From the NCBI GenBank assembly GCA_016699795.1, contig CP065011.1, positions 78,168 to 142,167 on the forward strand: DNA of 64,000 bases. Reading direction: 5' to 3'. This DNA is from Candidatus Moraniibacteriota bacterium (GTDB lineage: Bacteria; Patescibacteriota; Minisyncoccia; Moranbacterales; GCA-2747515). Shown here one piece after another: positions 2,335-42,953 of the stretch. The notes under the pieces are model-generated. The model saw only the letters and a list, made by a program, of their open reading frames with translations, had not been told where the DNA came from and made no database searches. Both the position numbers and the translations under genes were made by a program. The stretch's first letter is position 1. Every line of letters starts with the position of its first letter.

Positions 2335-2354
2335 AATTCCATTCTAACGTATTT

Positions 2355-3743: not shown

Positions 3744-3808
3744 TTTGTGTTAGATTATTCAATTACGTTATATTTTGATTTTTTAAAAAGTACTCTTATC
3801 TCACTACT

Positions 3809-4696: not shown

Positions 4697-4702
4697 AAAA
4701 TA

Positions 4703-4729
4703 CCCCGTCTCATATCTGGACGGGGTTTT
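4703..4729 (+). terminator. Rho-independent terminator after htpX
   Basis: Stem ccccgtc / gacgggg with 9-nt loop, followed by TTTT; 6 nt after the TAA stop at 4694-4696. Confidence 0.6.
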
Positions 4730-5018
4730 AAAAATCTTTCAGTCATCTAAATTTTCTTCGGCAAACATTGCGCGCAAACCTTCCCACAAAAAAACCAAAG
4801 GAAAGAGAACGAGAAGAATGCCAAACACCAGAGCTATGTACCACCATGAATTACTCGGCTCACTCATTATATATCTCCAATACGTATCAAAAAACTTTTT
4901 TCACTCTAGCAGAAAAGGCTCGTAGAGAAAAGATCCCCTCTGAAATGAAAACCTTTTCATCAAAAGAAAAACCGCCGAAAGAAGTATCTTTCAACGGTTT
5001 AGTAAAAACTAGAGACTA

Positions 5019-5429
5019 CTAACTACACTGTCCGAACTTCCCTCTGAAAACGATAGGGACGTATCTTGTGGGATTTATGAATATTCCACAAGCAGTTTCG
5101 TCATCGGCAGTCCATGTGCCGGGCATTTCGTCTGAAAGACGATTTTTGCCATCCGTAACGATGTACGGTTTTCCGAATTCCATTTCTGAGCTCTTTTTTA
5201 CACATCCATGTAATCTACCCGTTTCTTCATTCACCCTACAGGCGAAGAAGTTTTTAGAGTTCCAAGAAGTTATCTTTTCCTTGTATATTTCGTTCCACAA
5301 CAATCCATCTGGAGTTGTCGCCGCGAAAACCTTCGAAGAAAAAAAGAGGAAGAGGAGAAGAATTCCTGTTATAAAGAGAAAAAGAGAGAAAGCCCCTCCG
5401 AACAAGTAGGGTGTATCGTATTTTTTCAT
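5019..5429 (-). CDS. Small secreted Cys-containing protein (signal peptide/TM, 4 Cys), uncharacterised
   Basis: 136 aa with N-terminal hydrophobic segment. Contains motifs DGLLW...TSW...CRVNEETGRLHGC...GKPYIV shared with the adjacent GC-rich gene at 5666-6079. Confidence 0.45.
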   Translation of the reverse strand: MKKYDTPYLFGGAFSLFLFITGILLLFLFFSSKVFAATTPDGLLWNEIYKEKITSWNSKNFFACRVNEETGRLHGCVKKSSEMEFGKPYIVTDGKNRLSDEMPGTWTADDETACGIFINPTRYVPIVFRGKFGQCS

Positions 5430-5665
5430 CTCTCACTCCTAGGCTCACTTGCCTAAAAAATATAAAAGAACATATTTGTCCGAAAAAATTCGGTACAGGT
5501 TTGGACAGAGAGATTGTATTCTCCGTATCCAAGACTTTATCGAATAAATAAAAAAGAAAATCGACAGAGAACAATACGAATACTATCTTCTATTCGGTAA
5601 ATTTTACCAAAAGAAAAATATTATTGTATGTTCTCTGACGATTAATCGAGACGATGTTCAGACGG

Positions 5666-6079
5666 TTATTTTACCGTCCAGTAATCGTCGGATCGGGCCT
5701 TGAACGACCCGACCACGCTCCCGGGCCCAATCATTTGGGTTCCAGGAGCGGACCCAGCCTCACCCCATGTTGATCCTCCGCAGAAGATCACGTATGGGAG
5801 TCCGCTCTGCATGGCAGAAGGAGGCCCACACTCAGTCATCGACGGGCGTCCATTTTCGGCGCGACAGATCTCGCAAAGAGATGGGTCATAAGGAATGACC
5901 CTTACTCCTTGGGAAGCCGCGGACCAAGAAGTTCCGTCGTAGCGTCCAGCGTGGGCCGGAGAGGCAAGGAGGAGGAGCAGAAACAGGGTTCCTACTATTG
6001 CCAGTGTGGCTATGAAGCCCCCAAAAGAAGCTTCCGCCCACGTCTCATCCTGCTGTTGCTGATTCTGAAAATAGTTCAT
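5666..6079 (-). CDS. Small secreted Cys-containing protein, GC-rich paralog of 5019-5429
   Basis: Start is reassigned to the in-frame ATG at 6077-6079 (MNYFQNQQQQ...), which has an AGGAG Shine-Dalgarno 6 nt upstream. The AT-rich part of the track ORF (to 6352) upstream is non-coding. TM segment, then DGTSW...CEICRAENGRPSMTEC...GLPYVIFCGG, matching the neighbour's motif spacing. Roughly 50% GC versus the ~33% background. Confidence 0.45.
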   Translation of the reverse strand: MNYFQNQQQQDETWAEASFGGFIATLAIVGTLFLLLLLASPAHAGRYDGTSWSAASQGVRVIPYDPSLCEICRAENGRPSMTECGPPSAMQSGLPYVIFCGGSTWGEAGSAPGTQMIGPGSVVGSFKARSDDYWTVK

Positions 6080-6253
6080 CTCGAACTCCTGGGGGTGTTT
6101 TCCCCTAAATATTGAAAAAGTACTTGTTCTCTCTTCCTTTTTGGGAAGATGATGGAATGACATCAACGATATCAATCCAATAATCTTTCGAAAAAAAGGA
6201 ATGCCCGGAAGCGAGAAAGAGATTATTCGAATACATCTCTCACGCTTCCTGGC

Positions 6254-6282
6254 AATATAGCACATCCTGACAATTTTGTCAA
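6254..6282 (-). promoter_or_regulatory. Sigma70-like promoter driving the GC-rich small gene, with a palindrome over the -35
   Basis: Minus-strand TTGACA (complement of 6277-6282), 17-nt spacer, TATATT (complement of 6254-6259). The inverted repeat TGACAAttTTGTCA (6268-6281) overlaps the -35. Confidence 0.45.
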
Positions 6283-6437
6283 GATATATACGGATTTTAC
6301 CGCGCACTTTCAAGGATATCCTTGAATTTTCTTTGAGAAAATCCTTTCTCAAAGCGGAAAGTCATACCTTCTTTCCCATTTTTTATCTTCTTTGATTCTT
6401 TACAATTTCCGTGTAAAGGTTATTTCCTTACCAACAA

Positions 6438-8114
6438 CTACCCAGAAAAAGAACCTAATGCACTTTCAATTCCTCCCGAAGAAGAAATTGTTATGTGCTG
6501 TTTCTCCTCATTATTGGAAGATGCAGTTTGTTGATCTGCGGCCCAACCAAACGGTGAGGAGGTTGACGTGTTATTGTGTTGATCAGCTTTATAATCCTTT
6601 ACAAAATGATTTTCATCACTCTGAGAGGATGGGACTGATTTTGCTTTCGGAGCTACAGCTTTCGCTTTCACACCGAGGTATTGCTGAGAGCTTCCGGCAT
6701 TGTCCGTAAGAGCCGTAGTAGCAACCTGCGAGTTAGCACGAAGCCAACCCAATCCAGCATTCCACTCGATCTCCACGATGAAGTGAGGATCGGGGAATTG
6801 TACACCTACACCGATGCGCCAGACATCGTCCTTCGTAGCGATTCCGGCAAGGATTTTACCCCCGATCGGATTACTGACCACGTCGCTGATATGCCAGATC
6901 CCCAGCGTAAGCTCGGGTTTGACATTCCAGTCTGCTCGATCTAATTCGAACCGAAGAATGGCGCCGACCACGAGTTTCCTTGCGGACTCATGATTGACAG
7001 GTGTTCCTTTCCAGAGAATGTCCGTTTTGTTACCACTAAGAGGAATATCCACCCATGGCATAAAACGAACAGTTACACCAGTCTGATCATCAATTTTGAA
7101 CCGCTCCCGAAGTTGCAAAGCGATTCGAAGATCCATACCATCGGCACGGAGCTTTTCTACCAGACCATCCTTGGAGTATCCACGAGTTGAGCCTTGTCCC
7201 GCAAGGACAACGAATTCAACCGCATCGATGTCACCGACCGGTCCACGACCTTCGATACCAACGCCGTAGAAATCAGAGACTTCCACCCATTCCTTATTAT
7301 TGAAACGAGCGGACTTACCTGCGATCGACGGACCCACCTTCCAGCCGTTTCCAACTGGGAAAAGGCACGAGAAACGGAGTGATCCGCTTTCTCCACGTTG
7401 CCCCATCTGAGCCCAAAGAGCACCTACGGCTTCACAACCAAGACTTTCTTGGGTAGGAGCGGGAGCTGGTGGCGTGGGAACTGTTACTGTGTTCCAAGCA
7501 ACGTTTCCACACCGCATGGCGATGTCAACCTGCTTGCTACCATTCATGGATGGGCATGCCCAAACCATGATGTCAGTACCACTGGCGTTTTGAGTCTTGC
7601 CCCAATTCCCCTTGCCCATAGCCATACCTTCCCAGGTAAAACCTATGGGACGAGCAACGGCCTGACACTTTCCAGAAACAAGATCTCCCCGAACCTGCTC
7701 CACTTCCGAACTCGAAAGTCCGAATTGAGACAGGCGACGAGATTGCTCTGAAGTGAGTTGCAATTCTTCCGTCTTGTGCCATTCTTTCCGGAGGCGAAGA
7801 GGAAGAAGAGAATCAGCGCCGACTTTCTTCCACTGGCGAATACCAGAGGAAGATTCCAGAACAACAGGAGATTGTTTCACAGAAGAAACGACTATTCCTG
7901 ATTCTGGAAGCGTGAGGGTTTGTCCAACGCGAATCGTGTGAGGAGCCTTAATCCCATTCGCTCTGGCAATTTCTTGCCAAGAAGTCTGGGATTTATTGGC
8001 GATTTTGATCAAGGAGTCACCCTTGACCACCGTGTACGTCCCCGCCGAAGCAAGGGGCGCGCCAACAACCGCGAGAAAAATTCCCGCGATGACGAGAAGT
8101 TTCCTAAACATCAT
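6438..8114 (-). CDS. LysM (peptidoglycan-binding) domain protein with signal peptide and large beta-rich C-terminal domain
   Basis: Start trimmed to MMFRKLLVIAGIFLAVVGAPLASA (signal peptide; GGGAGG just upstream), which avoids a 62-nt overlap with the upstream gene. Canonical LysM: YTVVKGDSLIKIANKSQTSWQEIARANGIKAPHTIRVGQTLTLP. The C-terminal ~400 aa show an alternating hydrophobic beta-strand-like pattern (VTVRFMPW, LVVGAILRFELD, WRIGVGVQFP, FIVEIEWNAGLGW). Lies in the GC-rich island. Confidence 0.6.
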   Translation of the reverse strand: MMFRKLLVIAGIFLAVVGAPLASAGTYTVVKGDSLIKIANKSQTSWQEIARANGIKAPHTIRVGQTLTLPESGIVVSSVKQSPVVLESSSGIRQWKKVGADSLLPLRLRKEWHKTEELQLTSEQSRRLSQFGLSSSEVEQVRGDLVSGKCQAVARPIGFTWEGMAMGKGNWGKTQNASGTDIMVWACPSMNGSKQVDIAMRCGNVAWNTVTVPTPPAPAPTQESLGCEAVGALWAQMGQRGESGSLRFSCLFPVGNGWKVGPSIAGKSARFNNKEWVEVSDFYGVGIEGRGPVGDIDAVEFVVLAGQGSTRGYSKDGLVEKLRADGMDLRIALQLRERFKIDDQTGVTVRFMPWVDIPLSGNKTDILWKGTPVNHESARKLVVGAILRFELDRADWNVKPELTLGIWHISDVVSNPIGGKILAGIATKDDVWRIGVGVQFPDPHFIVEIEWNAGLGWLRANSQVATTALTDNAGSSQQYLGVKAKAVAPKAKSVPSSQSDENHFVKDYKADQHNNTSTSSPFGWAADQQTASSNNEEKQHITISSSGGIESALGSFSG

Positions 8115-8844
8115 AACCTCCCGAGGATTTCTCCTCTTTTTTAGAACTTTCTTTCTTCTCTTCAAGAAGGTTTGGCTCTTTGAGGAGCGCGCACCCTATT
8201 TGAAGGACTTTGGGAAGGGCTCCAATGGGTCCATACATTATCGGTCCGAGAATATCGGATGACGATATAGACCCAAGCCCACAAATTGCTGACCGTTCTT
8301 TCCAATCGACAAGCGATGGGACCGAAACAGCGTTGAGTGCATCTTCTCCGAAAAGGAGTCTCGCTCCTGATCCCGGTATATCATCGGAGATAAACGGGAA
8401 CTCTCCTCCGAGATGAGCATATATATCCCGAAGCTCGGAAGCACTTAACTCCTTTGCCACAGGGACCATATACGCCTTACCTCGCGCGGAGATGACTTCC
8501 ACACCTCGGAACTCACTCGAAGAAAAAACATACCCTTTTTCTCCTTTCGGATAAAGAGAAATGTTTTGACCCGAGACGCGAGCTCGAAATGCCTTTCGGC
8601 AAATTTCGACCTGCTTTTTGTCAAGAGTCATGTACTGTTTGCACATAACCTCTCGTTTCACCTCCTTCGGAAGTGAAACCTCATATCCCTTTGCCGAATG
8701 AATCGGCGGAGGGGCCACAAATGTCGTGGCATTGGCAAGATATTCCATCTCACCACCACTCAGACCCAACGACTCACGAGGAGTCATTGGAGCGCATCCC
8801 GACGCGATAATCGCGACGAGAACAAGACTCAACCTATTATTCAC
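8104..8844 (-). CDS. Lipoprotein (lipobox LVAIIASGC), uncharacterised
   Basis: Start reassigned to GTG at 8842-8844 with GGAGG 6 nt upstream (...agagaGGAGGtttgttGTGaat). The AT-rich 5' part of the track ORF (to 8940) matches flanking non-coding composition. Signal peptide VNNRLSLVLVAIIASG-C. GC-rich composition. Confidence 0.45.
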   Translation of the reverse strand: MNNRLSLVLVAIIASGCAPMTPRESLGLSGGEMEYLANATTFVAPPPIHSAKGYEVSLPKEVKREVMCKQYMTLDKKQVEICRKAFRARVSGQNISLYPKGEKGYVFSSSEFRGVEVISARGKAYMVPVAKELSASELRDIYAHLGGEFPFISDDIPGSGARLLFGEDALNAVSVPSLVDWKERSAICGLGSISSSDILGPIMYGPIGALPKVLQIGCALLKEPNLLEEKKESSKKEEKSSGGYDV

Positions 8845-9000
8845 AACAAACCTCCTCTCTCTTTCGAGAGAAAAAATCAAAAAAAATTTTAAAAGTACTC
8901 GGATCAAAACTTCATATAAACTATGAAAGTGATCCCGCAAGGAGAGAAAAAGAATTTTCTCCCTTGTGCGGAAACATTCTCAAGCAATTCTTTCAATAAA

Positions 9001-9690
9001 CTATATATCGTAGATCAGACCGCCACGCGATTCCTTATTCTTCATTGGAGGAGCGAAAACTGAATAATCTGTTGTATCCACTTCTTGTTTATACCATATA
9101 CGAATAAAGAAAATGGCTATTCCAAGGATCATCCCAGCGATGCTTCCAAATATCAATTGCATTATGGTTGGATTCTGCTCCACAATAGGTCCTGATATAA
9201 GCTTTATCGATAATGACTCCGGTGGACCTGATCGAAATAATGTATTTTGATTAATAAGCACATCAGATATAGCCTTAGCAATACCAATAGCATCATTTCT
9301 GCTATCACGATATACAGTCACTTCAAGAATACCTGCATTCGATCTTTGTTTTACCTCTACAGTATTCTGCCATTCTTTTAAACGACTTCGTTCATCACCC
9401 GAGAAAGGCTCTCTTTCAAAATAATTTGTTCGAGAAGCCTCGTTAAGAAAAAGATCACTCATCACAGCTTCACGAAGAACATTTCCACTATATTCAGCAC
9501 TTTTAGAAAGTGTATAGAAGTCTTTAGAATCCTCACTGTGTTGCATTACAAGAAAATCTGTTCGAACTTTGTATGCATCAGGAACAAATATCAAAAGAAG
9601 AAAAACGAAAACGCCCCCAATAAGTGCTGAAAAAAATATATTTCCAACATTGTTACGGATATTCGTAAAAAACAGAGAATAGTAATACAT
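9001..9690 (-). CDS. Polysaccharide co-polymerase (Wzz/chain-length-determinant-like): TM1, external domain, Pro-rich segment, TM2
   Basis: 229 aa. N-terminal TM (FFSALIGGVFVFLLLIFV), soluble middle, then GPIVEQNPTIMQLIFGSIAGMILGIAIFFI near the C-terminus, which is PCP family topology. Confidence 0.45.
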   Translation of the reverse strand: MYYYSLFFTNIRNNVGNIFFSALIGGVFVFLLLIFVPDAYKVRTDFLVMQHSEDSKDFYTLSKSAEYSGNVLREAVMSDLFLNEASRTNYFEREPFSGDERSRLKEWQNTVEVKQRSNAGILEVTVYRDSRNDAIGIAKAISDVLINQNTLFRSGPPESLSIKLISGPIVEQNPTIMQLIFGSIAGMILGIAIFFIRIWYKQEVDTTDYSVFAPPMKNKESRGGLIYDI

Positions 9691-9808
9691 AATAAAGAGA
9701 GTTTTTTCAATAATGCTAACGGGCTACATTAGCACAACTTTTAATTTTTGTCAATAGTAACGACAAAAAACGCCTTATTAAAAACGTTTTATTTTTCTCT
9801 TTATTTCT

Positions 9809-11029
9809 CTATTCTGGTTGAGCACCAAGAACAACTGTAACTTTTTGTTCAATTCCTTGACGAACAAATGATACAGTCACTTCATCTTTTTCTTTAAAAT
9901 TACTCAAAACATTGGAAAGCGGATTTTCATAACTAATAGAAATATCATTTACCGAACGAATGATATCCCCATAGCGAAAACCAGCTTTTTGCGCAGGAGA
10001 ACCCAAAAGAACGACTGGAGAAAGAGGACTAGTCTTTTGTTCAAAAGACAACCAAGCGCCTGATTCTATATTTAAGTCATTTCTTTTTGCTATAGTCGGG
10101 GTAATGGATATATAAGACGCTCCAAAAAATGGAGGTTGATAGCTAGGATTTGCAACAACCCTTTGCATGCTTTTTTTCATATCATTTCCTCTCAAAACAT
10201 AAGGAAAACTCTGATCCCCTACCGTCCTAGTACCCAAGATACCCATTAATTCTCCCGTATAACTTAATACCGGAGAACCAGATCGTATATCTTTTTCTTC
10301 CAAAAAAGAAACTTCAAAAACTCCTTGATGTTTTTCGGTTGAAGAAGAGACCTTATTAGCCAAAGAAAAAGTTGGATTAAATGTTTTAATAACTCCAAAA
10401 TAAATCTCATTTTGATTCAAAATATCATTTTCTCCAAGAGCAATAACTTTTCTTCCGGAAGAAAAATCTTCAGAATCAGCAAAAACTACTGGAGTAAAAT
10501 TATCCCCAGATATTCGAAGATATAATAAATGAGAAAAAGAATCATATGCAAAAAATTTCGCATCAAAACGAGTTCCGTCAAAATCCATTATGTCATAAGT
10601 TGTCTCAGAAAAATCTAAAGAATCTGAAAAAGATGTAACCAATAAACCATCCGTAGTAAGAATTGTTCCTGTTAAAGAAAAAATTCTTTTTGTTAAAGCT
10701 TTTTCCTGCATCATAATATATACAATGGAATTGCTCACATTTTGAATAGAACGATCTAGTCGATCATCATCACGTATAATTATCTCTTCCCTATTGTTAA
10801 TAACTGTTGTATTTTCTTTTGCCGTTTCTAACAAAGAAAAATTTGAAAACATTTCTAAAGAAGCCAAAAATGGCAAAGCCAAACGAATGGAAAAAATCGA
10901 GACAATTCCAATAAAAAGAATAATCCCTATATATCGAAAGAGAAATCTAAAAATAAATACAGATTTTCGTAAAAAAGGAATCATATATATAAAGAATACA
11001 CGAAAAATAAAAAATATACAATAATACAA
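9809..11029 (-). CDS. Membrane-anchored trypsin-like serine protease (HtrA/S1C-like) with C-terminal PDZ domain
   Basis: 406 aa. N-terminal TM region; trypsin-fold core with Ser motif region IRSGSPVLSYTGELMGI; C-terminal PDZ-like (GFRYGDIIRSVND). Confidence 0.5.
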   Translation of the reverse strand: MYYCIFFIFRVFFIYMIPFLRKSVFIFRFLFRYIGIILFIGIVSIFSIRLALPFLASLEMFSNFSLLETAKENTTVINNREEIIIRDDDRLDRSIQNVSNSIVYIMMQEKALTKRIFSLTGTILTTDGLLVTSFSDSLDFSETTYDIMDFDGTRFDAKFFAYDSFSHLLYLRISGDNFTPVVFADSEDFSSGRKVIALGENDILNQNEIYFGVIKTFNPTFSLANKVSSSTEKHQGVFEVSFLEEKDIRSGSPVLSYTGELMGILGTRTVGDQSFPYVLRGNDMKKSMQRVVANPSYQPPFFGASYISITPTIAKRNDLNIESGAWLSFEQKTSPLSPVVLLGSPAQKAGFRYGDIIRSVNDISISYENPLSNVLSNFKEKDEVTVSFVRQGIEQKVTVVLGAQPE

Positions 11030-15861: not shown

Positions 15862-17235
15862 TTATTTGCTTTCATTAAGAGTAATATCTCTATCCAAAAT
15901 TATTTCATGAAATTCTTTCTTTCCAGTTGAATCCATAATTTCTATTGCGTAAGGGACTTTCTTAAGACCTGCTTGTTTTTGAATTTTGAGATTATAAAAT
16001 TCTCCATCCAAGAAACTCGGAAGAGTATATTCGAACGTAAAAGTTTTCGAAGAATTTAAAGGAACTTGCACAAGTGTTCCGAAATATTTTTTCCCAAATT
16101 CATTTCCATACTGAACATCTTTAACAAGTCCCTGAGTTGATTCAAGCCAACTCCCTTCTGGAACATAGATACGGAGATATGATTGGTAGTCACCCGTTTT
16201 CCAATCTTTTGTTTTTCCATTGTGCGTATATGTTATCGAAAGAACAGCACGAGGTCTTTCCTTTGTAAAATCCAGGGAATATGAAACTTTTCTTTCTATA
16301 AGTCTATCACTTTTTAAAGCTCCTAAATTAGCATCTACCAATAAGAGATAATCATTCTTCCACGAAGAATCTGTAATACCGCCCCATGATCGTTCTTGAA
16401 TTATTTTATTCAAATAACTATCTTTAAAATAAAGTTGAATATCTTTGCTATATAAATCATCAAGAATCACTCTTGCCAATCGAATTTTCTTAGAAATATC
16501 TAAATCTCCTAATTGTGCCAAAACAGCTTTAGCGAGATCATTAAGCATAACTTTTCGATCGCCTCTTTTTATGCCCTGGTCCACAAATCCCTTTTCCACT
16601 TGATACTGTAATAATTCAATAGCATTTTCCGTTCCATATCTCCCAGGAAAGCCCTCTATTTCTACTGGACCAGTAATTTCAAGAGCGCTCAAAAGAACAT
16701 CTGTTGTTATACCAATAACACCATTAAATTTCTCTTCTCCCTTTCCCATCTCATAGAACATAAGAGCATTCTCTGCATTTGTTGGAAAATCAGGAGAATA
16801 ATTAGAATCTCGAAGTTTCCAAGAATCCACTCCCAAAGTCTCTTTCATTGGAAAAGGGGGTGAAATTATCGAGGGTATTCTTCCATCAAAATTCGCTGTA
16901 TCATGAACGGAAATATCTTTTACAAAACCATTCTTCACTTTTAAAACACCGAAAGAGCCAATAAAACCCCCTCCTGGTCGAAGTTCCCAGTAGTTTTGAA
17001 AAAGGAGAAGGTACGTTCTTTCAACATCATCATCCACCATAAGAAGATCCGCCAAGGAAACAACAGCTTCAATGTCCCCCTTAAATTCTTCAGACAAGGG
17101 AAGAAATTCCGCTGTTCGAGAAATCATACCAAAACCATTATTTTTTACTTCCAAGAAAAAATACCAACAAAAAAGAAAAATAACCGAAACCGTCCAAAAT
17201 ATAATCCAGAACCTTAAAGAATATTTTTTCGACAT
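15862..17235 (-). CDS. DUF4012 domain membrane-anchored protein
   Basis: 457 aa. N-terminal TM, then RPGGGFIGSFGVLKV... motif, the conserved GGFIGS core of DUF4012. Paralogous to the C-terminal domain of 40002-42953. Confidence 0.6.
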   Translation of the reverse strand: MSKKYSLRFWIIFWTVSVIFLFCWYFFLEVKNNGFGMISRTAEFLPLSEEFKGDIEAVVSLADLLMVDDDVERTYLLLFQNYWELRPGGGFIGSFGVLKVKNGFVKDISVHDTANFDGRIPSIISPPFPMKETLGVDSWKLRDSNYSPDFPTNAENALMFYEMGKGEEKFNGVIGITTDVLLSALEITGPVEIEGFPGRYGTENAIELLQYQVEKGFVDQGIKRGDRKVMLNDLAKAVLAQLGDLDISKKIRLARVILDDLYSKDIQLYFKDSYLNKIIQERSWGGITDSSWKNDYLLLVDANLGALKSDRLIERKVSYSLDFTKERPRAVLSITYTHNGKTKDWKTGDYQSYLRIYVPEGSWLESTQGLVKDVQYGNEFGKKYFGTLVQVPLNSSKTFTFEYTLPSFLDGEFYNLKIQKQAGLKKVPYAIEIMDSTGKKEFHEIILDRDITLNESK

Positions 17236-27771: not shown

Positions 27772-28239
27772 TTAACGTTTGCTCCATTGTGGTGCTCGTC
27801 GAGCTTTTTTAAGTCCTGGTTTCTTTCGTTCAACCTTACGAGCATTTCTCGTAATCATACCAGCAGATTTAAGTGTGGGTTTAAGACCAGCATCCATATT
27901 CACTAAAGCACGAGCCACTCCTAATCGAACAGCTTCTGCCTGACCTCGCATACCACCACCACGAACAACGCAAGTTACTCGAACCTTTCCCATAAATCCA
28001 GTAAATTCGAGAGGTCTCTTGGCTTGTTTTTTAAAATCAAGATTACTAAAATATTCTTCAAAATCAACTCCGTTGACGATAAGTGAAGATTCTTCATCCT
28101 TAACTTTTTCATCGTAAACTCTTACTTGAGCTACAGAAGTTTTTCGACGACCAATTCCAGGATAATATTTTTTCACTATTACCTTCTTTTCTTGATCATC
28201 TTTCGTAGTTTGTTGTGTCATTGTTGTTGTCATATACAT
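27772..28239 (-). CDS. rpsI: 30S ribosomal protein S9
   Basis: C-terminus ...GGGMRGQAEAVRLGVARALV...ARKVERKKPGLKKARRAPQWSKR. N-terminal ~25-aa extension. Confidence 0.9.
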   Translation of the reverse strand: MYMTTTMTQQTTKDDQEKKVIVKKYYPGIGRRKTSVAQVRVYDEKVKDEESSLIVNGVDFEEYFSNLDFKKQAKRPLEFTGFMGKVRVTCVVRGGGMRGQAEAVRLGVARALVNMDAGLKPTLKSAGMITRNARKVERKKPGLKKARRAPQWSKR

Positions 28240-28248
28240 TAAAACTCT

Positions 28249-28665
28249 TTATTCATGAGTAATGTGGATAGTATGAGCATGTTCTTCTCCAATATAGAGA
28301 AAAAGTCGATTCATACGATTCTGTTGAAGCTTATTTTTGGGAAGCATTCCTAAAACCGCTTTTTCAAAAATTCTTTTAGGATCACGGTCTTTTACTTCTT
28401 CATATCGAAGCGAAGTAAGTCCTCCAGGATATCCAGAATAATGATGGTACATTTTTTTTGTTTCTTTTCCTCCTGTTACTTGAATATTTTCCACATTAGT
28501 AACAACTACAAAATCTCCTCCATCAATATGTGGAGTGAATGAGGGGTGATGCTTTCCAATTAAAATCTGAGCGACTTTAGTTGCAAGACGACCAAGAACC
28601 TCGTCTTTAGCATCAAATAAATGATATTTCCGGGTGATTTGCTTCATACGTTCACAAAAAATCAA
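28249..28665 (-). CDS. rplM: 50S ribosomal protein L13
   Basis: WHLFDAKDEVLGRLATKVAQILIGKHHP... is an L13 signature. 4-nt overlap with rplQ. Confidence 0.9.
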   Translation of the reverse strand: MIFCERMKQITRKYHLFDAKDEVLGRLATKVAQILIGKHHPSFTPHIDGGDFVVVTNVENIQVTGGKETKKMYHHYSGYPGGLTSLRYEEVKDRDPKRIFEKAVLGMLPKNKLQQNRMNRLFLYIGEEHAHTIHITHE

Positions 28666-29030
28666 TCAACAAATTCTACCACTGCCATCTTAGCGCTATC
28701 ACTTTTTCTGGCAGGGAGTTTAGTTACACGAGTAAAACCACTAGTTCTTATTTCAAATCGTTTACGAAAATCATCATCAGCAAATTTTTCTACCGCCATC
28801 TTAGGAAGACGACTTGCCAAAAGACGCAATATAGCAACTTTTCTTTCCGGATCAGAAATTTTCTTAGCAATAGTAACCACACGATCAATTCGAGCCTTTA
28901 TTTCTTTAGCTTTTGCCTCTGTCGTTACAATACGTTCACGCTGAATAAGACTTCCCATGAGAGTCTTTAAAAGTGCTCGCCTCTGCGAACGAACTCTTCC
29001 GAATTTTCTTCCTTGACTACGATGTTTCAT
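28662..29030 (-). CDS. rplQ: 50S ribosomal protein L17
   Basis: MKHRSQGRKFGRVRSQRRALLKTLMGSLIQRERIVTT... Confidence 0.9.
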   Translation of the reverse strand: MKHRSQGRKFGRVRSQRRALLKTLMGSLIQRERIVTTEAKAKEIKARIDRVVTIAKKISDPERKVAILRLLASRLPKMAVEKFADDDFRKRFEIRTSGFTRVTKLPARKSDSAKMAVVEFVD

Positions 29031-29058
29031 AACTGTTTCTCAAATAATTCTTTTAGAA

Positions 29059-29757
29059 CTATTTTTCTTCTTTAGGTGAAATCAATGATTGGAATTGTTC
29101 AACGAGTATTTCTACTGAGCGATCAAATGCCTCTTTGGGAGTCATCACACCGTCGGTTTCAATATCTAATCGAACTCTTTCATAATCCGTTCTCTTTCCG
29201 ACGCGAACGTTATCGACCGTAAAATTTACACGCTTTACTGGAGTAAAAATAGCATCAATAGCAATAACTCCAATTTCTTTTTCAGGACGATCTTGCTGTT
29301 CTACAGGAACATAGCCAAGTCCTTTACGAACTTCTATTTCCATTTCGAACTGAGCTTTTTTGTCTGTAAGTGTAGCGATTACCTGGTCAGGATTCACTAC
29401 CTTTATATCAGAGGTTACTTTTATATCACCGGCTGTAACAACCTTTTCACCTTTTACTTTAACAGAAACTTTTACACTTTCTTCTCCGAGTACTTGAAAA
29501 CGAACTCGTTTCATATTGAGAAGAATTTGTATAATATCTTCACGAACATGTTCGATAGTCGAGAATTCATGTTGAACTCCTGAGATTTTTATAGAAACTG
29601 CTGCGGCCCCCTCAAGAGAAGAAAGAAGCACTCGTCGAAGAGCGTTTCCTAATGTTGATCCGTAGCCAGGATAACACCCGACTATTTCCACGGATCCGCG
29701 GAATTGATCATCTTCATGGTACTCTACTTTCTGAGGTGGGAGAATGGCGTATTTCAT
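29059..29757 (-). CDS. rpoA: DNA-directed RNA polymerase alpha subunit, N-terminal (dimerisation/assembly) domain only, 232 aa
   Basis: GYGSTLGNALRRVLLSSLEGAAAVSIKISGVQHEFSTIEHVREDIIQILLNMKRVRF matches alpha-NTD. The ORF ends 28 nt before rplQ, so no linker or alpha-CTD is encoded here. Confidence 0.85.
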   Translation of the reverse strand: MKYAILPPQKVEYHEDDQFRGSVEIVGCYPGYGSTLGNALRRVLLSSLEGAAAVSIKISGVQHEFSTIEHVREDIIQILLNMKRVRFQVLGEESVKVSVKVKGEKVVTAGDIKVTSDIKVVNPDQVIATLTDKKAQFEMEIEVRKGLGYVPVEQQDRPEKEIGVIAIDAIFTPVKRVNFTVDNVRVGKRTDYERVRLDIETDGVMTPKEAFDRSVEILVEQFQSLISPKEEK

Positions 29758-29796: not shown

Positions 29797-30432
29797 TTAC
29801 TTAGAATAAAATTCAACAACTAATTGAGGATTGAAATCACCTTCAATATGATCACGAGTTGGCTGAGCAAGAACAATTCCTTCCCATTTCGATTCATCAA
29901 AAACCAACCATCCGGGTGTATCATTCTGACGAGTTTTTCGAGCTTCCTTCAAAAGAGTAAGGTATTTTTTCTCAACATTTTCTTTTCTTATAGCAATCGT
30001 ATCACCTACTTTTATTCTACAAGAAGGAATATCTGTCTTTTTCCCATTAAGGAGAAAAAAACCATGACTAACAAGCTGACGAGCTTGTGCTCGAGAAGTA
30101 GAAAATCCGAGACGATATACAACATTATCAAAACGTTCTTCCAAACGCTGTAAAAGTAAATCACCAGTAATACCTTCTTTTCCTTGAACTTCAGCAAAAT
30201 GTCTTCGAAACTGAGCCTCTAGAACACCATAAGCTCGTTTAATCTTTTGCTTCATTGCAAGTTGACGCCCAAATTCACTTGGAGCCTTTCCTCTCGCTTG
30301 TCCATGCATACCTGGAGCATATGGACGTCTTACCATTGCACATTTTGGAGTAAGACAACGATCTCCTTTCAAAAAGAGTTTCTCTCCTGCTCGTCGACAC
30401 AATACACATTTGGAATTAAGTTCTCTCGCCAT
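29797..30432 (-). CDS. rpsD: 30S ribosomal protein S4
   Basis: MARELNSKCVLCRRAGEKLFLKGDRCLTPKCAMVRRPYAPGMHGQ... (zinc-ribbon S4 plus S4 RNA-binding domain). Confidence 0.9.
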   Translation of the reverse strand: MARELNSKCVLCRRAGEKLFLKGDRCLTPKCAMVRRPYAPGMHGQARGKAPSEFGRQLAMKQKIKRAYGVLEAQFRRHFAEVQGKEGITGDLLLQRLEERFDNVVYRLGFSTSRAQARQLVSHGFFLLNGKKTDIPSCRIKVGDTIAIRKENVEKKYLTLLKEARKTRQNDTPGWLVFDESKWEGIVLAQPTRDHIEGDFNPQLVVEFYSK

Positions 30433-30491: not shown

Positions 30492-30992
30492 TTATACTCG
30501 ACGAGGTCGTCTAGGTCGACAACCATTGTGAGCTATTGGTGTAATATCTTTAATAGAAAGAATTTCGAATCCATTATTTGCCAAAGATCGTATAGCAGAT
30601 TCTCGTCCACTCCCGACACCTTTCACAAAAACTTCTATTTCCTTCAACTGATGCTTTCGAACTTTTTCAGTCACATCTGCTACTACTTGGGTAGCTGCAT
30701 AAGGCGTAGATTTCTTTGCCCCTTTAAAGCCCAAAAGCCCACTACTTGACCAAGAAAGAACACCCCCCTGAGCATCACTCAACATAACCATAGTATTATT
30801 GTATGTACATTGGATGTGAGCTTGTCCGCGTAAAACTTGACGCTTTCCTCTTTGCTTTTTGGAAAGAGGAGTTGTTGCAGAAACAGTATTCGAAACAGAA
30901 TCAATAACGGATTCCTTCTCAACAGCTTTCACTTCTGAAACTTCTTCTTTCAAAGCTTCTTTTTCGCTCGTTTTATTCTTCTCTTCGGTCAT
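30492..30992 (-). CDS. rpsK: 30S ribosomal protein S11 with ~45-aa Lys/Glu-rich N-terminal extension
   Basis: ...AHIQCTYNNTMVMLSDAQGGVLSWSSSGLLGFKGAKKSTPYAAT...PHNGCRPRRPRRV. The core is 120 aa. Confidence 0.9.
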   Translation of the reverse strand: MTEEKNKTSEKEALKEEVSEVKAVEKESVIDSVSNTVSATTPLSKKQRGKRQVLRGQAHIQCTYNNTMVMLSDAQGGVLSWSSSGLLGFKGAKKSTPYAATQVVADVTEKVRKHQLKEIEVFVKGVGSGRESAIRSLANNGFEILSIKDITPIAHNGCRPRRPRRV

Positions 30993-31043
30993 AAAAACAT
31001 ATCAATTACAAAAATATATCGGGCACTTGGAATTTAAAATCTT

Positions 31044-31433
31044 TTATGTCTTTTCAGACGCTGATCTTCGACCACTACCCATTGTTCTTCGGACATTACC
31101 CCTAACTGTTCTTGTATTCGTCTTCGTTCTTTGTCCCCGAACAGGAAGCCCTTTTGAATGGCGCATACCTCGATATGATCCGATTTCTTTCAAACGACGA
31201 ATATTCATCTTTATTTCATGACGCAAATCACCCTCTACACGATGTTGTTTTTCTACAACATCTCTAAGTCGATTCACATCCTCTTCTGAAACATCTTTCA
31301 TTCTTGTGTCGGGATTTATACCAAGTTCAGCTAAAATTTTCTGACTTGTTGGAAGACCTATTCCATATACATAGGTAAGAGAAATTTCCACTCTCTTTTT
31401 ATCCGGCAAAGTTACTCCAGCAATACGAGCCAT
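31044..31433 (-). CDS. rpsM: 30S ribosomal protein S13
   Basis: [34 protein letters not shown]... Confidence 0.9.
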
Positions 31434-31474
31434 ATAGTTTATTAAGTAAGATTATCCTTTATTCTTTAAAATTC

Positions 31475-31588
31475 TTAACCTTGTCTTTGCTTATGCTTTG
31501 GAGTTATGCAAATAACATAAACACGTCCGCGTCTTCGAACAACTTTACAACGATCACATATTTTTTTCACAGATGCGCGAACCTTCAT
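31475..31588 (-). CDS. rpmJ: 50S ribosomal protein L36 (37 aa; missing from the ORF track because it is under 60 aa)
   Basis: Minus-strand ATG at 31586-31588. Translation [37 protein letters not shown], stop TAA at 31475-31477. C-x2-C-x12-C-x4-H zinc ribbon identical in pattern to bacterial L36. Confidence 0.85.
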
Positions 31589-31600
31589 ATATAATAATCA

Positions 31601-31819
31601 TTACAATCGTCTAGTAATTCTTCCTTTAGAGAGGTCATATGGACTCAGTTCTATAAGAACTTTGTCACCTGGCAATAATCTAATGTAATGCACTCTCATT
31701 TTTCCTGAAATATGAGCGAGAACCTCATGATCATTTTCGAGTTTTACACGAAACGTCGTACTCGGTAATGTCTCTAAAACAGTACCTTCTAAGACGATAA
31801 CGTCTTTTTTTTCTCCCAT
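31601..31819 (-). CDS. infA: Translation initiation factor IF-1
   Basis: [71 protein letters not shown]. Confidence 0.9.
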
Positions 31820-40001: not shown

Positions 40002-42953
40002 TTATTCAAAAACAGCTCCAAAAAACATATCCGTATCCCAATCAAAGGTTTTTCCTATAAGTTCCCCTTCTTTTGATTCTTCGATATTTTTATTTCTATA
40101 TAAAATATCCCATTTTTCTGGATATTGCAAAGTATAGGAGTATTTTCTTCCCATATTTCCCGATTGTTTTTGTGCAAGTAAAGAAAAAGATTTAATCTTC
40201 TGAGAACTTTTTTCTTGAACTCGGAAAGGTAAAATATACGTATACGTAACAGTTACTTCTTCTTTTGGACTCACGTAAACCCAATTTCCAAAAACAGTCT
40301 TTCCAGATTCTTCAAAAATTTGAGTCCCTGAATCATCCCGTATCATAGTAGATTCAATGTGAGAAACGGTTTCATCTGAAGTAAAGCCTAGCGTTTTATA
40401 ATCAAGTGGATTTCGGATTGCTTCTCGAGTATGTCCCGTAACAGAAATTAATTGAGATCCTTTTGGTACGTATACACGGAGATAATCAGCGTTAACACCA
40501 TTATACCATTGATACTCCGTATCTCCTCCATTATGTTTTCGATGTATGGATACCGTGTTTTGAATAGATCCATCTTCCATAATCTTCGATTCATGTCGAA
40601 CATCTTCTTCTATAACCTTATCTGTTTTAAAGCCATTAATATTTGAATGAATAATATTTAAATAATCATAATCCGTTTCTAAAATATCGCCAGACCAACC
40701 GGAAGATTCATAAAGAGTTTGGATCTTTTCGTTTCGTGAATACAAAAGAATATGTTTTTCACTCAAAGAATGAATCATTAAGGAAAGTATAGCAGAAACC
40801 CCCTCTTCACGTACATTCAAGAATAATTTTTCTATAAGAAGTGAAGAAAGCTCACCAAGGATTTTTTTTGGACGATTTTCTTTTGGATCATAACCTTCTT
40901 CAACTTCATATTGAATAAGGTCCATAAAATTTTCAGCATCAATAGTCACCTCATATTCTGGAATATCGATAGGGCCTGAAATTTGCAATAATCGCTCTAA
41001 TACTTTTGGCGTAATAGCAATAACACCATCCACGGTTGGTCCCCCTCCTTTTTCATAGAAATACATTGCTTTTTCTGCTGAAAGAGGAAAATGTGGGAAC
41101 CAATTGCTATCATGAAGACTCCATCCAGCGCTAATTTTTCTTATAGGTTCAGGAGGGATGGTATCTACTCGAAGCTGACCATCAGGATTAAAAACATCGT
41201 CCACAAAAAACTTTCGGATATGTCCCTTTTCAACATCAAGAAAACCGTAACTTCCTATAAAACCACCAGTAGCTCTCACTTCATGAGTATTCTGAAAAAG
41301 AAAGAGATATTTTCTAGGACCATTAGCCCCTACCATATCAGAAAATGCTTCCATATTCTCAACATAATGATCTGTTAAAGAAATAATCTCAGGAAGAGAT
41401 GATTTGAGAAGAAGAAATAATTCTCGCTTTTCCTCTGGTAAATGATCTATCTGTATATTCTCAGTCTGTTTTTGAGCTTCAACAAGATATAAACGCGCCT
41501 CTGCAATATTTTTTGAAAATTCTTCCAAAAAAACAATAAATGTTGTGTCTTCTGGATTTTTTGATGTAATAGCATCTCCTGTTTCCAACAAAAGTCTCGC
41601 CGAAGCGCTCATACTTTTTCCTGCGTAAGACAAATTCATTGCAATTTCCAAGGCACTTTTTCCCGAAGATATTTTTGAAATAAAAGGTATAGACAAATAA
41701 GATCCCCCAAGAATACCAGCCCAATCATTAAATTGAGTAGAAAGATTTTCAAATTGTTTCCCCGCATCATTAAAATAATTTTCGGATGAAAGGAAATCGA
41801 GTTCTTTCATTTTTTCCACAGCAAACATAGCATCGTCCAAACCTTCTGTACTCACTCCCAAAACATACTGCTCTAAAGCGAGTCCTCTGAAAAGAAAAAT
41901 GCCTGAAAATACAAAAATAAATACAACCGCTGAAGAAAGTGCAAAAGGTTTTATACTTAAGAAAGAAAAATTTTCTCTTTTTTTTATTCTCTTATTCTTA
42001 TTTTTATAAAAAGATTGTATTGAGGATTTATTCAAAAAATACTTTCTTGCATTAAAAAAACCTAAAAATATACTCTCTTTCTTCTTTTCTTTAAGGGAAA
42101 GTTCTGGGGTTATTTTTTTAATAGGAAATGTTGCAAGTTCTTTCTTGTGTTCTTTCTCGGTTTTCTTGAAAAGTGAGAAAAGTGAACGTTTCTCTGGTTT
42201 AGGTAAAGAGATTGAGGGCGCTTTCCATGGAAGTGTTGTTTTATCTTCTTTTTTTAGCTCCTTCGATTGGATTACTTGTGAGAAAAGGGATACCTTTTTT
42301 AATTCTTTGGGAGGTGGAACAGGAATTCCTCCAAAAAAATATCCTGTTTCTCTTAAGCCCAGAGAAGGCTTCGAGGATCTACTTTTCAAAGAATTTTCCC
42401 CTTTCTTCAAAGCCCATTCTTTATTTATACTCTCAAATTCGGGTTTTTGAATTTTTATTTCTTCTGAAGAAAAAATATTTTTTTCAAGAATCTTCTTTTT
42501 TTTCAACAACGATACTTCTTTTCTTTCATGAGAAAAGATGCTATCTTTTTCTTCACTATAAAACACTTTATTCTTTATAGTTTTTTCTTCTTTTTTAAGA
42601 TTATGAACAATCTTAATTTTGTGTTCATTTTTTTCAAGAGCCTTCTTTGAAATCACTCTATTCTCCTCTACTTTTTGCTCTTTAATCTGAAATAATTTCT
42701 CTATATCAGTATCCGCTCCAACTCGAATACCTTTAAAAATAATTTTTTTCTTATTTTCCTCTTCCTTATTTTCTTTAGAAATAATTATCTCGCGATTTAT
42801 AACTTTCGTTTTTTCCAATTTTATTATTTCTTTTTCATTTGAGACCAATTCTTTTTTCAAGGAAATATCATTTTGAGAATAGAAAAAACCCCTCTTTTGA
42901 GTTTTTTTAGGGCCCATGCTATCGATATTCACTATTTTCTTTTTCTTTTCCAC
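40002..42953 (-). CDS. Large DUF4012-domain membrane protein with a ~340-aa Lys/Glu-rich cytoplasmic N-terminus
   Basis: 983 aa. Low-complexity K/E-rich N-terminal third, single TM (AVVFIFVFSGIFLF), then extracellular domain containing RATGGFIGSYGFLDVEKG and a downstream region paralogous to 15862-17235. Confidence 0.6.
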   Translation of the reverse strand: MEKKKKIVNIDSMGPKKTQKRGFFYSQNDISLKKELVSNEKEIIKLEKTKVINREIIISKENKEEENKKKIIFKGIRVGADTDIEKLFQIKEQKVEENRVISKKALEKNEHKIKIVHNLKKEEKTIKNKVFYSEEKDSIFSHERKEVSLLKKKKILEKNIFSSEEIKIQKPEFESINKEWALKKGENSLKSRSSKPSLGLRETGYFFGGIPVPPPKELKKVSLFSQVIQSKELKKEDKTTLPWKAPSISLPKPEKRSLFSLFKKTEKEHKKELATFPIKKITPELSLKEKKKESIFLGFFNARKYFLNKSSIQSFYKNKNKRIKKRENFSFLSIKPFALSSAVVFIFVFSGIFLFRGLALEQYVLGVSTEGLDDAMFAVEKMKELDFLSSENYFNDAGKQFENLSTQFNDWAGILGGSYLSIPFISKISSGKSALEIAMNLSYAGKSMSASARLLLETGDAITSKNPEDTTFIVFLEEFSKNIAEARLYLVEAQKQTENIQIDHLPEEKRELFLLLKSSLPEIISLTDHYVENMEAFSDMVGANGPRKYLFLFQNTHEVRATGGFIGSYGFLDVEKGHIRKFFVDDVFNPDGQLRVDTIPPEPIRKISAGWSLHDSNWFPHFPLSAEKAMYFYEKGGGPTVDGVIAITPKVLERLLQISGPIDIPEYEVTIDAENFMDLIQYEVEEGYDPKENRPKKILGELSSLLIEKLFLNVREEGVSAILSLMIHSLSEKHILLYSRNEKIQTLYESSGWSGDILETDYDYLNIIHSNINGFKTDKVIEEDVRHESKIMEDGSIQNTVSIHRKHNGGDTEYQWYNGVNADYLRVYVPKGSQLISVTGHTREAIRNPLDYKTLGFTSDETVSHIESTMIRDDSGTQIFEESGKTVFGNWVYVSPKEEVTVTYTYILPFRVQEKSSQKIKSFSLLAQKQSGNMGRKYSYTLQYPEKWDILYRNKNIEESKEGELIGKTFDWDTDMFFGAVFE

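What the first reader, a model, noticed from the sequence alone, without database searches (positions are those of the whole stretch)
29059..29757. RNA polymerase alpha subunit lacks the C-terminal domain
rpoA encodes only 232 aa, the alpha-NTD, and ends 28 nt before rplQ. No linker or alpha-CTD (~80 aa in typical bacteria) is encoded here. Without alpha-CTD, UP-element recognition and class I activator contacts would be absent. This is consistent with a minimal transcription regulatory repertoire.
Basis: seen in the sequence. Interest (0 to 1): 0.5.

Follow-up and report, generated by a model that had tools for sequence, protein, structure and literature searches.

The report
RNA polymerase alpha without C-terminal domain
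This Moranbacteria (candidate phyla radiation) genome encodes an RNA polymerase alpha subunit with only the N-terminal assembly domain, and the same loss of the promoter- and activator-contacting C-terminal domain turns out to be conserved across several whole lineages of these ultra-small bacteria.

Summary
rpoA (29059..29757, minus strand) is a 232-aa ORF. It ends with TAG 28 nt before rplQ and contains only the alpha N-terminal domain (Pfam PF01000 + PF01193, no PF03118). No alpha-CTD is found in any frame of the 64-kb window.

It is not an artefact. The nearest relative, from a different sample, has the same 232-aa gene with the stop at the same codon (dN/dS 0.075). Of the 120 closest homologues, 72 lack the CTD. 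Of these, 36 end in a short acidic stub like this one. The other 36 keep the acidic linker and end in a Lys-rich patch.

Among 78 complete rpoA genes from GTDB species representatives, 22 lack the CTD. All 22 fall in the candidate phyla radiation (CPR) part of the tree, in at least three lineages: a Magasanik/Uhr/Jacksonbacteria clade, part of Moranbacteria, and one other.

The most likely reading is an RNA polymerase whose alpha is an assembly scaffold only. It would have no UP-element reading and no class I activation.

I could not test for a stand-alone CTD or a second rpoA in the remaining 1.12 Mb of the genome.

CTD-less alpha is already reported for Hodgkinia, Tremblaya and Euglena plastids. 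It is asserted in one sentence for Parcubacteria. This is therefore a new, better-documented member of a known kind.

The parts
29059..29757 (-). rpoA, 232 aa. It encodes the RNA polymerase alpha N-terminal (dimerisation and beta/beta' assembly) domain only, followed by an 8-9 residue tail (LISPKEEK). There is no linker and no alpha-CTD. The protein is identical to GenBank QQS61412.1.
   Evidence: ORF. Pfam PF01000 + PF01193 only. TIGR02027 253.7 bits, above its cut-off of 227.8, but covering only model positions 10-212 of 298. PDB alignments cover the NTD only. AlphaFold2 model pLDDT 86.6, last helix 207-223. Foldseek TM 0.87-0.92 to alpha-NTD chains. Identity to QQS61412.1.
29059..29061 (-). 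TAG stop codon of rpoA. A second in-frame stop (TAA) lies two codons downstream.
   Evidence: Sequence. The stop is at the homologous codon in relative L081.
29031..29058 (-). 28-nt rpoA-rplQ spacer, too short to encode anything.
   Evidence: The spacers in relatives are equally short (L081 19 nt, L083 22 nt).
28662..29030 (-). rplQ (ribosomal protein L17), immediately downstream of rpoA.
   Evidence: PF01196, E 5.1e-22.
29797..30432 (-). rpsD (ribosomal protein S4), immediately upstream of rpoA.
   Evidence: PF00163 + PF01479.
30492..31819 (-). Upstream genes of the same cluster: rpsK (30492..30992), rpsM (31044..31433), rpmJ (31475..31588), infA (31601..31819).
   Evidence: Pfam S11, S13, L36, IF-1. 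ORFs.
27772..28665 (-). Downstream genes of the cluster: rplM (28249..28665) and rpsI (27772..28239).
   Evidence: Pfam L13, S9. The same gene order is seen in L081 and L083.

Best explanation
rpoA here is an intact gene under selection for a naturally truncated alpha subunit consisting of the N-terminal domain alone. Two copies would dimerise and nucleate assembly of beta and beta', as in every bacterial RNA polymerase. The enzyme would have no flexibly tethered alpha-CTDs. It therefore could not read UP elements or be recruited by activators that touch alpha-CTD. Promoter recognition would rest on sigma-DNA contacts, and any regulation on factors contacting sigma, beta/beta' or alpha-NTD.

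The truncation is an inherited lineage trait produced by reductive evolution in CPR bacteria. Within Moranbacteria three forms exist: full-length alpha, alpha with the acidic linker plus a Lys-rich end, and alpha with only a short stub. This genome has the stub form. The order in which these forms arose is not resolved.

Shown here: the domain content, the absence of a CTD in the window, purifying selection, and the clade-wide distribution. Inferred: assembly competence, and the loss of UP-element and class I functions.
For: Domain content. The NTD is complete. The two arginines corresponding to E. coli R44/R45 are invariant in a 41-sequence alignment; their role in beta binding is from my own knowledge.

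No CTD elsewhere nearby: a CTD profile built from 48 Moranbacteria CTDs plus E. coli, run against 1099 six-frame segments of the window with filters off, gives a best E of 0.33 at 6.9 bits.

Not an artefact: the protein equals GenBank QQS61412.1 on a single 1,186,598-bp contig. The 87%-identical gene from SRR14932664 has the same length and stop position. It shows dS 1.14, dN 0.086 and dN/dS 0.075.

Lineage trait: of the 120 nearest homologues (61-100% identity), 48 have linker + CTD, 36 have linker + Lys-rich end, and 36 have a stub of at most 19 aa. These classes cluster on an NTD tree.

Wider distribution: 22 of 78 complete rpoA genes from GTDB representatives lack the CTD, all in the CPR part of the tree. 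Bootstrap support is 97% for the Moranbacteria clade, 84% for L010 + the Nealsonbacteria group, and 63% for the all-CTD-less Magasanik/Uhr/Jackson clade.

No local gene fission: there were zero CTD hits in 365 kb around the 22 CTD-less genes, while 10 of 10 positive controls were detected.

Biochemical precedent: C-terminally truncated alpha assembles into RNAP, binds DNA and sustains slow growth of B. subtilis for hours (PMC4495994).
Against: Only 64 kb of a 1.19-Mb genome could be searched. A stand-alone alpha-CTD gene, a protein carrying an alpha-CTD-like domain, or a second full-length rpoA paralogue elsewhere is not excluded.

Alpha-CTD is regarded as essential in E. coli and probably B. 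subtilis (PMC4495994), so complete absence calls for some compensation that I did not identify.

No transcription data exist for this organism. The relationships among the three forms within Moranbacteria are unresolved: bootstrap support is 12% for the four sampled CTD-bearing sequences forming a clade and 0% for the CTD-less ones.
Confidence: 0.85

Rival explanations
1. The alpha-CTD function is still present but encoded elsewhere in the genome. It could be a stand-alone CTD gene after gene fission, a CTD-like domain fused to another protein, or a second full-length rpoA paralogue (Francisella has two alpha genes).
For: The remaining ~1.12 Mb of the genome could not be searched; look-ups of this genome failed and it is not among the GTDB representatives scanned.

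Alpha-CTD domains do occur outside rpoA in public data, as proteins made of 4-11 tandem PF03118 repeats.

Two short contigs show an alpha-CTD ORF or remnant next to rplQ without an NTD (L085, L099).
Against: There is no CTD in the window and none in 365 kb around 22 other CTD-less rpoA genes.

Of 39 metagenome loci with a Moranbacteria-type CTD, 36 have it in frame with an NTD. Two are too short to tell because the contig is cut, and one is an IS-disrupted remnant without a start codon.

Most of the short CTD hits that I inspected from the 1.84-billion-protein library carry the end of the NTD, so they are fragments of rpoA rather than separate genes.

No other protein among the 120 best rpoA hits comes from the 1,186,598-bp contig.

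The occurrence of all three forms (CTD, Lys-rich end, stub) among close relatives fits loss in place, not relocation.
Confidence: 0.08
2. The short ORF is a sequencing or assembly artefact (frameshift, premature stop or misjoin) or a recent pseudogene, and the real organism has a normal ~320-aa alpha.
For: Such artefacts exist in related data. L084 has an in-frame TAA inside the NTD that splits rpoA into 189- and 139-aa pieces.
Against: rplQ starts 28 nt after the stop, so no coding space for ~90 missing residues exists in any frame.

Identical gene length and stop position occur in two other samples (L081, L082).

dN/dS is 0.075 over a synonymous divergence of 1.14.

72 CTD-less homologues come from NCBI, JGI, ENA and Logan sources.
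Confidence: 0.02
3. The lineage has replaced alpha-CTD with a different upstream-DNA-contacting device. Examples would be the Lys-rich or AT-hook-like tails seen on alpha in relatives, or an extension on sigma or another RNAP-associated protein. In that case some upstream A/T-tract sensing survives without a CTD.
For: 36 of 36 intermediate-length Moranbacteria alphas carry 5-8 Lys/Arg in a 12-residue window near the C-terminus, after an acidic linker. About 15 of 21 alphas in the independent Magasanik/Uhr/Jackson clade have 7 or more.

One tail (L022, KRGRPRK) hits the Pfam AT_hook model at 16.3 bits, against a cut-off of 17.4.

The two sister sequences P0003 and P0007 (76-77% identical to this protein) still have short Lys-rich ends.
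Against: This genome's alpha has no basic patch at all; its tail is LISPKEEK with net charge 0. For this organism the device would therefore have to sit on another protein, for which there is no evidence in the window. The binding function of the tails is untested, and low-complexity charged tails can evolve neutrally.
Confidence: 0.1

Closest known systems
Canonical bacterial RNA polymerase alpha subunit (RpoA; TIGR02027 / PRK05182; E. coli alpha, 329 aa)
   Same: The NTD is orthologous: 38-44% identity to solved alpha chains, the same fold (TM ~0.9), and the same operon position between rpsD and rplQ.
   Different: It ends at about the equivalent of E. coli residue 238. The inter-domain linker and the ~80-aa alpha-CTD (PF03118) are missing.
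Engineered C-terminal truncations of alpha: E. coli alpha(1-235), from my own knowledge of Igarashi and Ishihama 1991, and B. subtilis RpoA-del (PMC4495994)
   Same: The domain content is essentially the same. These truncations assemble into RNAP and support basal, activator-independent transcription.
   Different: Those are laboratory constructs that do not support normal viability. Here the truncation is the natural, conserved state.
CTD-less alpha subunits of extremely reduced insect endosymbionts (Hodgkinia, Tremblaya) and of Euglena chloroplasts (PMC8321222 and references therein)
   Same: Natural loss of alpha-CTD with retention of the NTD, in reduced genomes with few regulators.
   Different: This is a different phylum (CPR/Patescibacteria, Moranbacteria) with a ~1.2-Mb genome. 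It is not an intracellular endosymbiont genome of 0.14 Mb. The NTD is fully intact rather than eroded. The loss is shared by whole clades and comes with Lys-tailed intermediate forms.
The published one-sentence statement that alpha-CTD loss 'is also present in Parcubacteria' (PMC8321222)
   Same: The same phenomenon in the same superphylum.
   Different: The cited source (Nelson and Stegen 2015, PMC4508563) lists rpoA only as a core gene. It does not mention RNA polymerase domains in the text or supplements held. No distribution, intermediate forms or selection analysis had been published in the library searched.
Archaeal Rpo3 (subunit D) and eukaryotic Rpb3/AC40
   Same: They are homologous assembly-platform subunits that naturally lack any alpha-CTD-like appendage.
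   Different: This protein is of the bacterial type. The archaeal subunit D model scores only 27.3 bits against a cut-off of 153.

Membership tests
Bacterial RNAP alpha subunit (RpoA) | N-terminal domain made of the Rpb3/Rpb11-type dimerisation domain (PF01193) with the RpoA insert domain (PF01000) | tested here: met
   PF01000 at 114.2 bits and PF01193 at 71.4 bits, both above cut-off. Foldseek TM 0.87-0.92 to alpha-NTD chains.
Bacterial RNAP alpha subunit (RpoA) | C-terminal domain (PF03118, helix-hairpin-helix) joined by a flexible linker | tested here: not met
   No PF03118 hit at E<=1. NCBIfam models are matched only to positions ~230 of 298-344. Only 8-9 residues follow the NTD.
Bacterial RNAP alpha subunit (RpoA) | Reaches the curated equivalog score | tested here: inconclusive
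   TIGR02027 scores 253.7, above its cut-off of 227.8. All eight PRK05182 sub-models fall below their cut-offs, for example 271.4 against 277, because the CTD part is missing.
Bacterial RNAP alpha subunit (RpoA) | Conserved operon position rpsM-rpsK-rpsD-rpoA-rplQ | tested here: met
   The same order is seen in relatives L081 and L083.
Bacterial RNAP alpha subunit (RpoA) | Forms the alpha2 dimer and assembles beta and beta' | not testable with these tools
   Inferred from the complete, conserved NTD and from truncation experiments in model bacteria (PMC4495994).
Naturally CTD-less alpha subunits (Hodgkinia, Tremblaya, Euglena plastid) | Alpha gene retained with the NTD but without any alpha-CTD, as a heritable state rather than an error | tested here: met
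   The same truncation is seen in independent samples, with dN/dS 0.075. 72 of the 120 nearest homologues are CTD-less.
Naturally CTD-less alpha subunits (Hodgkinia, Tremblaya, Euglena plastid) | No alpha-CTD encoded anywhere else in the genome | tested here: inconclusive
   None in the 64-kb window.
Archaeal Rpo3/subunit D | Reaches the score of the subunit D equivalog (NF001988) | tested here: not met
   27.3 bits against a cut-off of 153.

The most novel reading that the evidence does not exclude
Loss of alpha-CTD may be the normal state of entire class-level CPR lineages, not a curiosity of one genome. These include a Magasanik/Uhr/Jacksonbacteria clade and a large part of Moranbacteria, and the loss has happened at least three times. 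In many of these lineages the folded CTD would be functionally replaced by a minimal Lys-rich or AT-hook-like tail on the old acidic linker, which still touches A/T-rich upstream DNA. This genome would be the endpoint with neither. That would mean a substantial fraction of bacterial diversity initiates transcription without a module textbooks treat as universal and essential.
Probability: 0.3. Interest if true: 0.7.

Novelty: new member of a known kind. Interest (0 to 1): 0.5.

Why it matters
Alpha-CTD is treated as a universal and, in model organisms, essential part of bacterial RNA polymerase. A 2025 survey calls it 'ubiquitously present across all Bacteria' (PMC12531629). It is the target of UP elements and of most class I activators.

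A conserved, selected NTD-only alpha shows that bacteria with ~1-Mb genomes, outside the extremely reduced insect endosymbionts, can do without it. Close relatives carry a full CTD, a Lys-rich tail or nothing. That offers a natural comparison for asking what alpha-CTD is really needed for, and how promoters and regulators change when it is lost.

There are practical consequences too. Annotation rules that require full-length rpoA scores, and comparative studies that assume a CTD, will mishandle these lineages.

Tried and rejected
1. Retrieving the source genome. Exact look-ups of RpoA and L17 found nothing. The GTDB-representative scan did not contain this genome or close kin; the best match was 55% identical. 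A whole-genome search for a CTD was therefore impossible.

2. Searching for stand-alone CTD genes with a CTD profile against 1.84 billion representatives. Most of the short hits I inspected carry the end of the NTD, so they are N-truncated rpoA pieces. The top hits are unrelated tandem-CTD repeat proteins. Following one candidate (P0147) led to a 1.5-kb contig with a truncated atpD upstream, probably a chimera.

3. The literature trail for 'alpha-CTD loss in Parcubacteria'. The cited paper does not contain the claim.

4. Promoter and terminator consensus scan of the operon. Promoter-like sites were no more frequent than in shuffles (11 found, 13.8 expected), so it says nothing about UP elements.

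5. Rfam and tRNA scans of the window to find rRNA promoters for an UP-element check. The window has no rRNA genes.

6. Resolving the order of the three forms within Moranbacteria. The NJ bootstrap does not resolve it.

7. Read-through or frameshift extension of rpoA. Rejected from the sequence itself.

Full report
**1. The observation**

The window carries, on the minus strand, the gene cluster infA (31601..31819), rpmJ (31475..31588), rpsM (31044..31433), rpsK (30492..30992), rpsD (29797..30432), rpoA (29059..29757), rplQ (28662..29030), rplM (28249..28665) and rpsI (27772..28239).

rpoA is an ATG-initiated ORF of 232 codons. Its stop is TAG (plus-strand 'cta' at 29059-29061). The rplQ start codon occupies 29030-29028, so the spacer is exactly 28 nt. 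Two codons after the TAG there is an in-frame TAA. No other minus-strand ORF of at least 40 aa lies between rpoA and the end of rplQ. There is therefore no coding room for a linker and CTD by frameshift, read-through or overlap.

**2. Domain content**

Pfam reports only the RpoA insert domain (PF01000, residues 56-172, 114 bits) and the Rpb3/Rpb11-type dimerisation domain (PF01193, residues 30-222, 71 bits). RNA_pol_A_CTD (PF03118) is not reported even at E<=1.

NCBIfam rpoA equivalogs align residues ~3-230 to model positions ~4-235 of 298-344. TIGR02027 passes its cut-off (253.7 against 227.8). The PRK05182 sub-models fall short because a third of each model is unmatched.

All 60 PDB matches are alpha subunits. 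The alignment to E. coli alpha covers query 6-227 against residues 9-233 of 329.

An AlphaFold2 model built on a 41-sequence alignment has mean pLDDT 86.6. Its last helix is 207-223, followed by a low-confidence tail. It superposes on alpha-NTD chains with TM 0.87-0.92.

The protein is a complete alpha-NTD plus the tail LISPKEEK.

**3. Is a CTD hiding nearby?**

I built a profile from the CTDs of 48 related full-length proteins plus E. coli alpha-CTD. I searched it, with all filters off, against the 1099 stop-to-stop segments of at least 30 aa in the six frames of the window. The best hit is E = 0.33 at 6.9 bits, which is noise.

**4. Source and reality of the truncation**

The protein is identical to GenBank QQS61412.1, 'MAG: Candidatus Moraniibacteriota bacterium', on a single 1,186,598-bp contig.

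The nearest relative (P0002, 87% identity) occurs on contigs from two other sequencing runs. It has the same 232 codons and the stop at the homologous position, in the same gene order. Between the two genes dS = 1.14, dN = 0.086 and dN/dS = 0.075. The gene, including where it ends, has been kept by purifying selection across substantial divergence.

**5. The relatives fall into three classes**

Among the 120 best database hits (61-100% identity over the NTD; sources NCBI, JGI, ENA, Logan), the sequence after the conserved '...QFSSL' falls into three classes:

- **A, 48 proteins of 309-341 aa.** A ~31-aa acidic linker (35% Asp/Glu) followed by a CTD. One member, P0094, has a divergent CTD that only just reaches PF03118 (24.0 bits against a cut-off of 23.8).
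- **B, 36 proteins of 246-287 aa.** The acidic linker is retained but ends in a Lys-rich patch such as APKKAKKKKEE. There are 5-8 Lys/Arg in the best 12-residue window, with a median of 6 residues from there to the C-terminus.
- **C, 36 proteins of 230-244 aa.** Only a 6-19-residue, mostly acidic stub. The window's protein belongs here.

On a neighbour-joining tree of the NTDs the classes form coherent groups. P0094 sits at the base of the class B group. The window's protein groups with P0002. Its next neighbours, P0003 and P0007, still carry short Lys-rich ends.

**6. Beyond Moranbacteria**

A scan of one genome per GTDB species returned 80 rpoA loci. Of the 78 ORFs not cut by a contig end, 56 have a CTD and 22 do not.

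All 22 fall in the CPR part of the NTD tree, which has 82% bootstrap support. They include records labelled Magasanikbacteria, Uhrbacteria, Jacksonbacteria and 'Patescibacteria group'. They also include 10 MAGs labelled 'uncultured Gammaproteobacteria' that cluster tightly with Magasanik- and Uhrbacteria and are evidently mislabelled.

On the tree, 21 of them form one all-CTD-less clade (bootstrap 63%). Moranbacteria form a separate clade (97%) that contains all three classes. L010 (~235 aa) groups with CTD-bearing Nealsonbacteria-like sequences (84%). That implies at least three independent losses. The order of events inside Moranbacteria is not resolved: bootstrap is 12% for the four sampled CTD-bearing sequences forming a clade and 0% for the CTD-less ones.

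About 15 of the 21 alphas in the large CTD-less clade again end in a basic cluster after an acidic stretch. One of them (L022...KPVRKRGRPRKIKEK...) matches the Pfam AT-hook motif at 16.3 bits, just under the 17.4 cut-off.

**7. Relocation versus loss**

In 365 kb of sequence around the 22 CTD-less genes the CTD profile finds nothing. It finds the CTD inside rpoA in all 10 control loci.

Of 39 metagenome loci carrying a Moranbacteria-type CTD, 36 have it in frame with an NTD (seven of these open frames run into the contig start). Two are too short to tell because the contig is cut. One (L099) is a special case described below.

A search of the CTD profile against 1.84 billion representative proteins produced short hits. 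Most of those I inspected still carry the end of the NTD, so they are fragments of rpoA.

I found no family of stand-alone CTD genes. I could not search the other ~1.12 Mb of this genome. That remains the main gap.

**8. Mechanism**

Shown: the gene encodes a complete, conserved assembly domain and nothing else.

Inferred from established work: alpha-NTD suffices for dimerisation and for assembly of beta and beta'. Alpha-CTD is what binds UP elements and class I activators (PMC8321222; PMC4495994).

In B. subtilis, RNAP containing C-terminally truncated alpha forms, binds DNA, elongates and supports growth at about half the normal rate for hours. Ribosomal and secondary-carbon-source genes are down-regulated.

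The most likely picture for this organism is an RNAP whose promoter recognition is entirely sigma-mediated. Any regulators would act through sigma, beta/beta' or alpha-NTD, or as repressors.

The Lys-rich tails in relatives suggest that some lineages keep a crude, non-specific grip on upstream DNA. This genome has lost even that.

**9. What is known**

Natural loss of alpha-CTD is described for Hodgkinia and Tremblaya and noted for Euglena plastids. The same paper states in one sentence that it 'is also present in Parcubacteria' (PMC8321222). However, the reference it cites contains no statement about RNA polymerase domains in its text or the supplements held.

Full-text searches combining CTD, RNA polymerase or rpoA with Patescibacteria, Parcubacteria or CPR found nothing else. 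A 2025 comparative study still describes alpha-CTD as ubiquitous in Bacteria.

**10. Verdict**

The finding is real and correctly interpreted. It is a new, well-supported member of a known kind (CTD-less alpha in reduced genomes).

- the loss is conserved under selection;
- it is shared by whole CPR lineages;
- it has occurred several times;
- it is accompanied in many relatives by a basic C-terminal tail whose function is an open and testable question.

Noticed in passing
Related proteins P0003, P0007, P0015-P0119 (class B) and loci L022, L024-L028, L030, L032, L036-L041, L044: Many CTD-less alpha subunits keep the acidic linker and end in a Lys/Arg cluster (for example APKKAKKKKEE or EKPKRKARKKTKKEE). 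This arose in at least two separate CPR clades. The L022 tail (KRGRPRK) nearly reaches the Pfam AT_hook cut-off (16.3 against 17.4 bits). It may be a minimal replacement for binding of alpha-CTD to A/T-rich upstream DNA.
   Followed up: partly
L099 (JGI Ga0101944_10018577): 1543-3201, 3851-4093, 4125-4478: An IS110-family transposase (PF01548 + PF02371; GC 44% against 33% in the flanks) lies directly upstream of an alpha-CTD remnant that has no usable start codon. rplQ follows the remnant. No NTD lies within 3.8 kb upstream. Either an IS insertion has cut rpoA between the NTD and CTD, which would be a possible route to CTD loss, or the assembly was misjoined at the IS.
   Followed up: partly
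Proteins P0121, P0122, P0128, P0136 (from the representative library): These proteins consist of 4-11 tandem RNA_pol_A_CTD (PF03118) repeats. Several have an N-terminal signal-like hydrophobic segment; P0121 is 1031 aa with 11 repeats. Their organisms and function are unknown. They show that the alpha-CTD fold is used outside RNA polymerase.
   Followed up: partly
L085 (ENA 1479-bp contig): 2-871, 883-1134, 1150-1479: A C-terminally truncated atpD is followed by an 83-aa alpha-CTD ORF with its own ATG (P0147) and then rplQ. It looks like a stand-alone CTD gene, but the truncated atpD and the very short contig suggest a chimeric assembly.
   Followed up: partly
L084 (GCA_964603325.1, CAZRUH010000001.1): 3419-4420: rpoA is split into 189-aa and 139-aa ORFs by an in-frame TAA at the conserved '...GKRTD-Y-DK...' position. 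This is a nonsense mutation or a sequencing error, and it is the kind of artefact the window's gene is not.
   Followed up: yes
Loci L022, L024-L027, L031, L033, L036, L038, L039 (and L002, L006, L015, L018, L019, L021): MAG records titled 'uncultured Gammaproteobacteria' carry rpoA genes that cluster inside the Magasanik/Uhrbacteria clade. Records titled 'uncultured Candidatus Saccharibacteria' cluster with Kaiser/Nealsonbacteria-like sequences. The record titles appear to be taxonomically wrong.
   Followed up: partly
window 30492..30992 (-) and 27772..28239 (-): Ribosomal proteins S11 (166 aa) and S9 (155 aa) have N-terminal extensions of ~55 and ~29 residues before the Pfam domain starts. 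The S11 extension is acidic and low-complexity.
   Followed up: no
window 4001..10000 and 60001..64000: GC content rises to 0.41-0.475 at 4-10 kb, against ~0.33 elsewhere. This region has several ORFs without Pfam hits and a 575-aa LysM protein. GC skew turns positive at 20-22 kb and 60-64 kb; the latter region encodes a 1244-aa protein with purple-acid-phosphatase-N and fibronectin-III repeats. These may be acquired or compositionally atypical surface-protein genes.
   Followed up: no
window 40002..42953 (-) and 15862..17235 (-): Two DUF4012 proteins (983 and 457 aa) sit among many glycosyltransferase, Wzy-type ligase and MurJ genes. Much of the window is devoted to cell-envelope glycan synthesis.
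   Followed up: no
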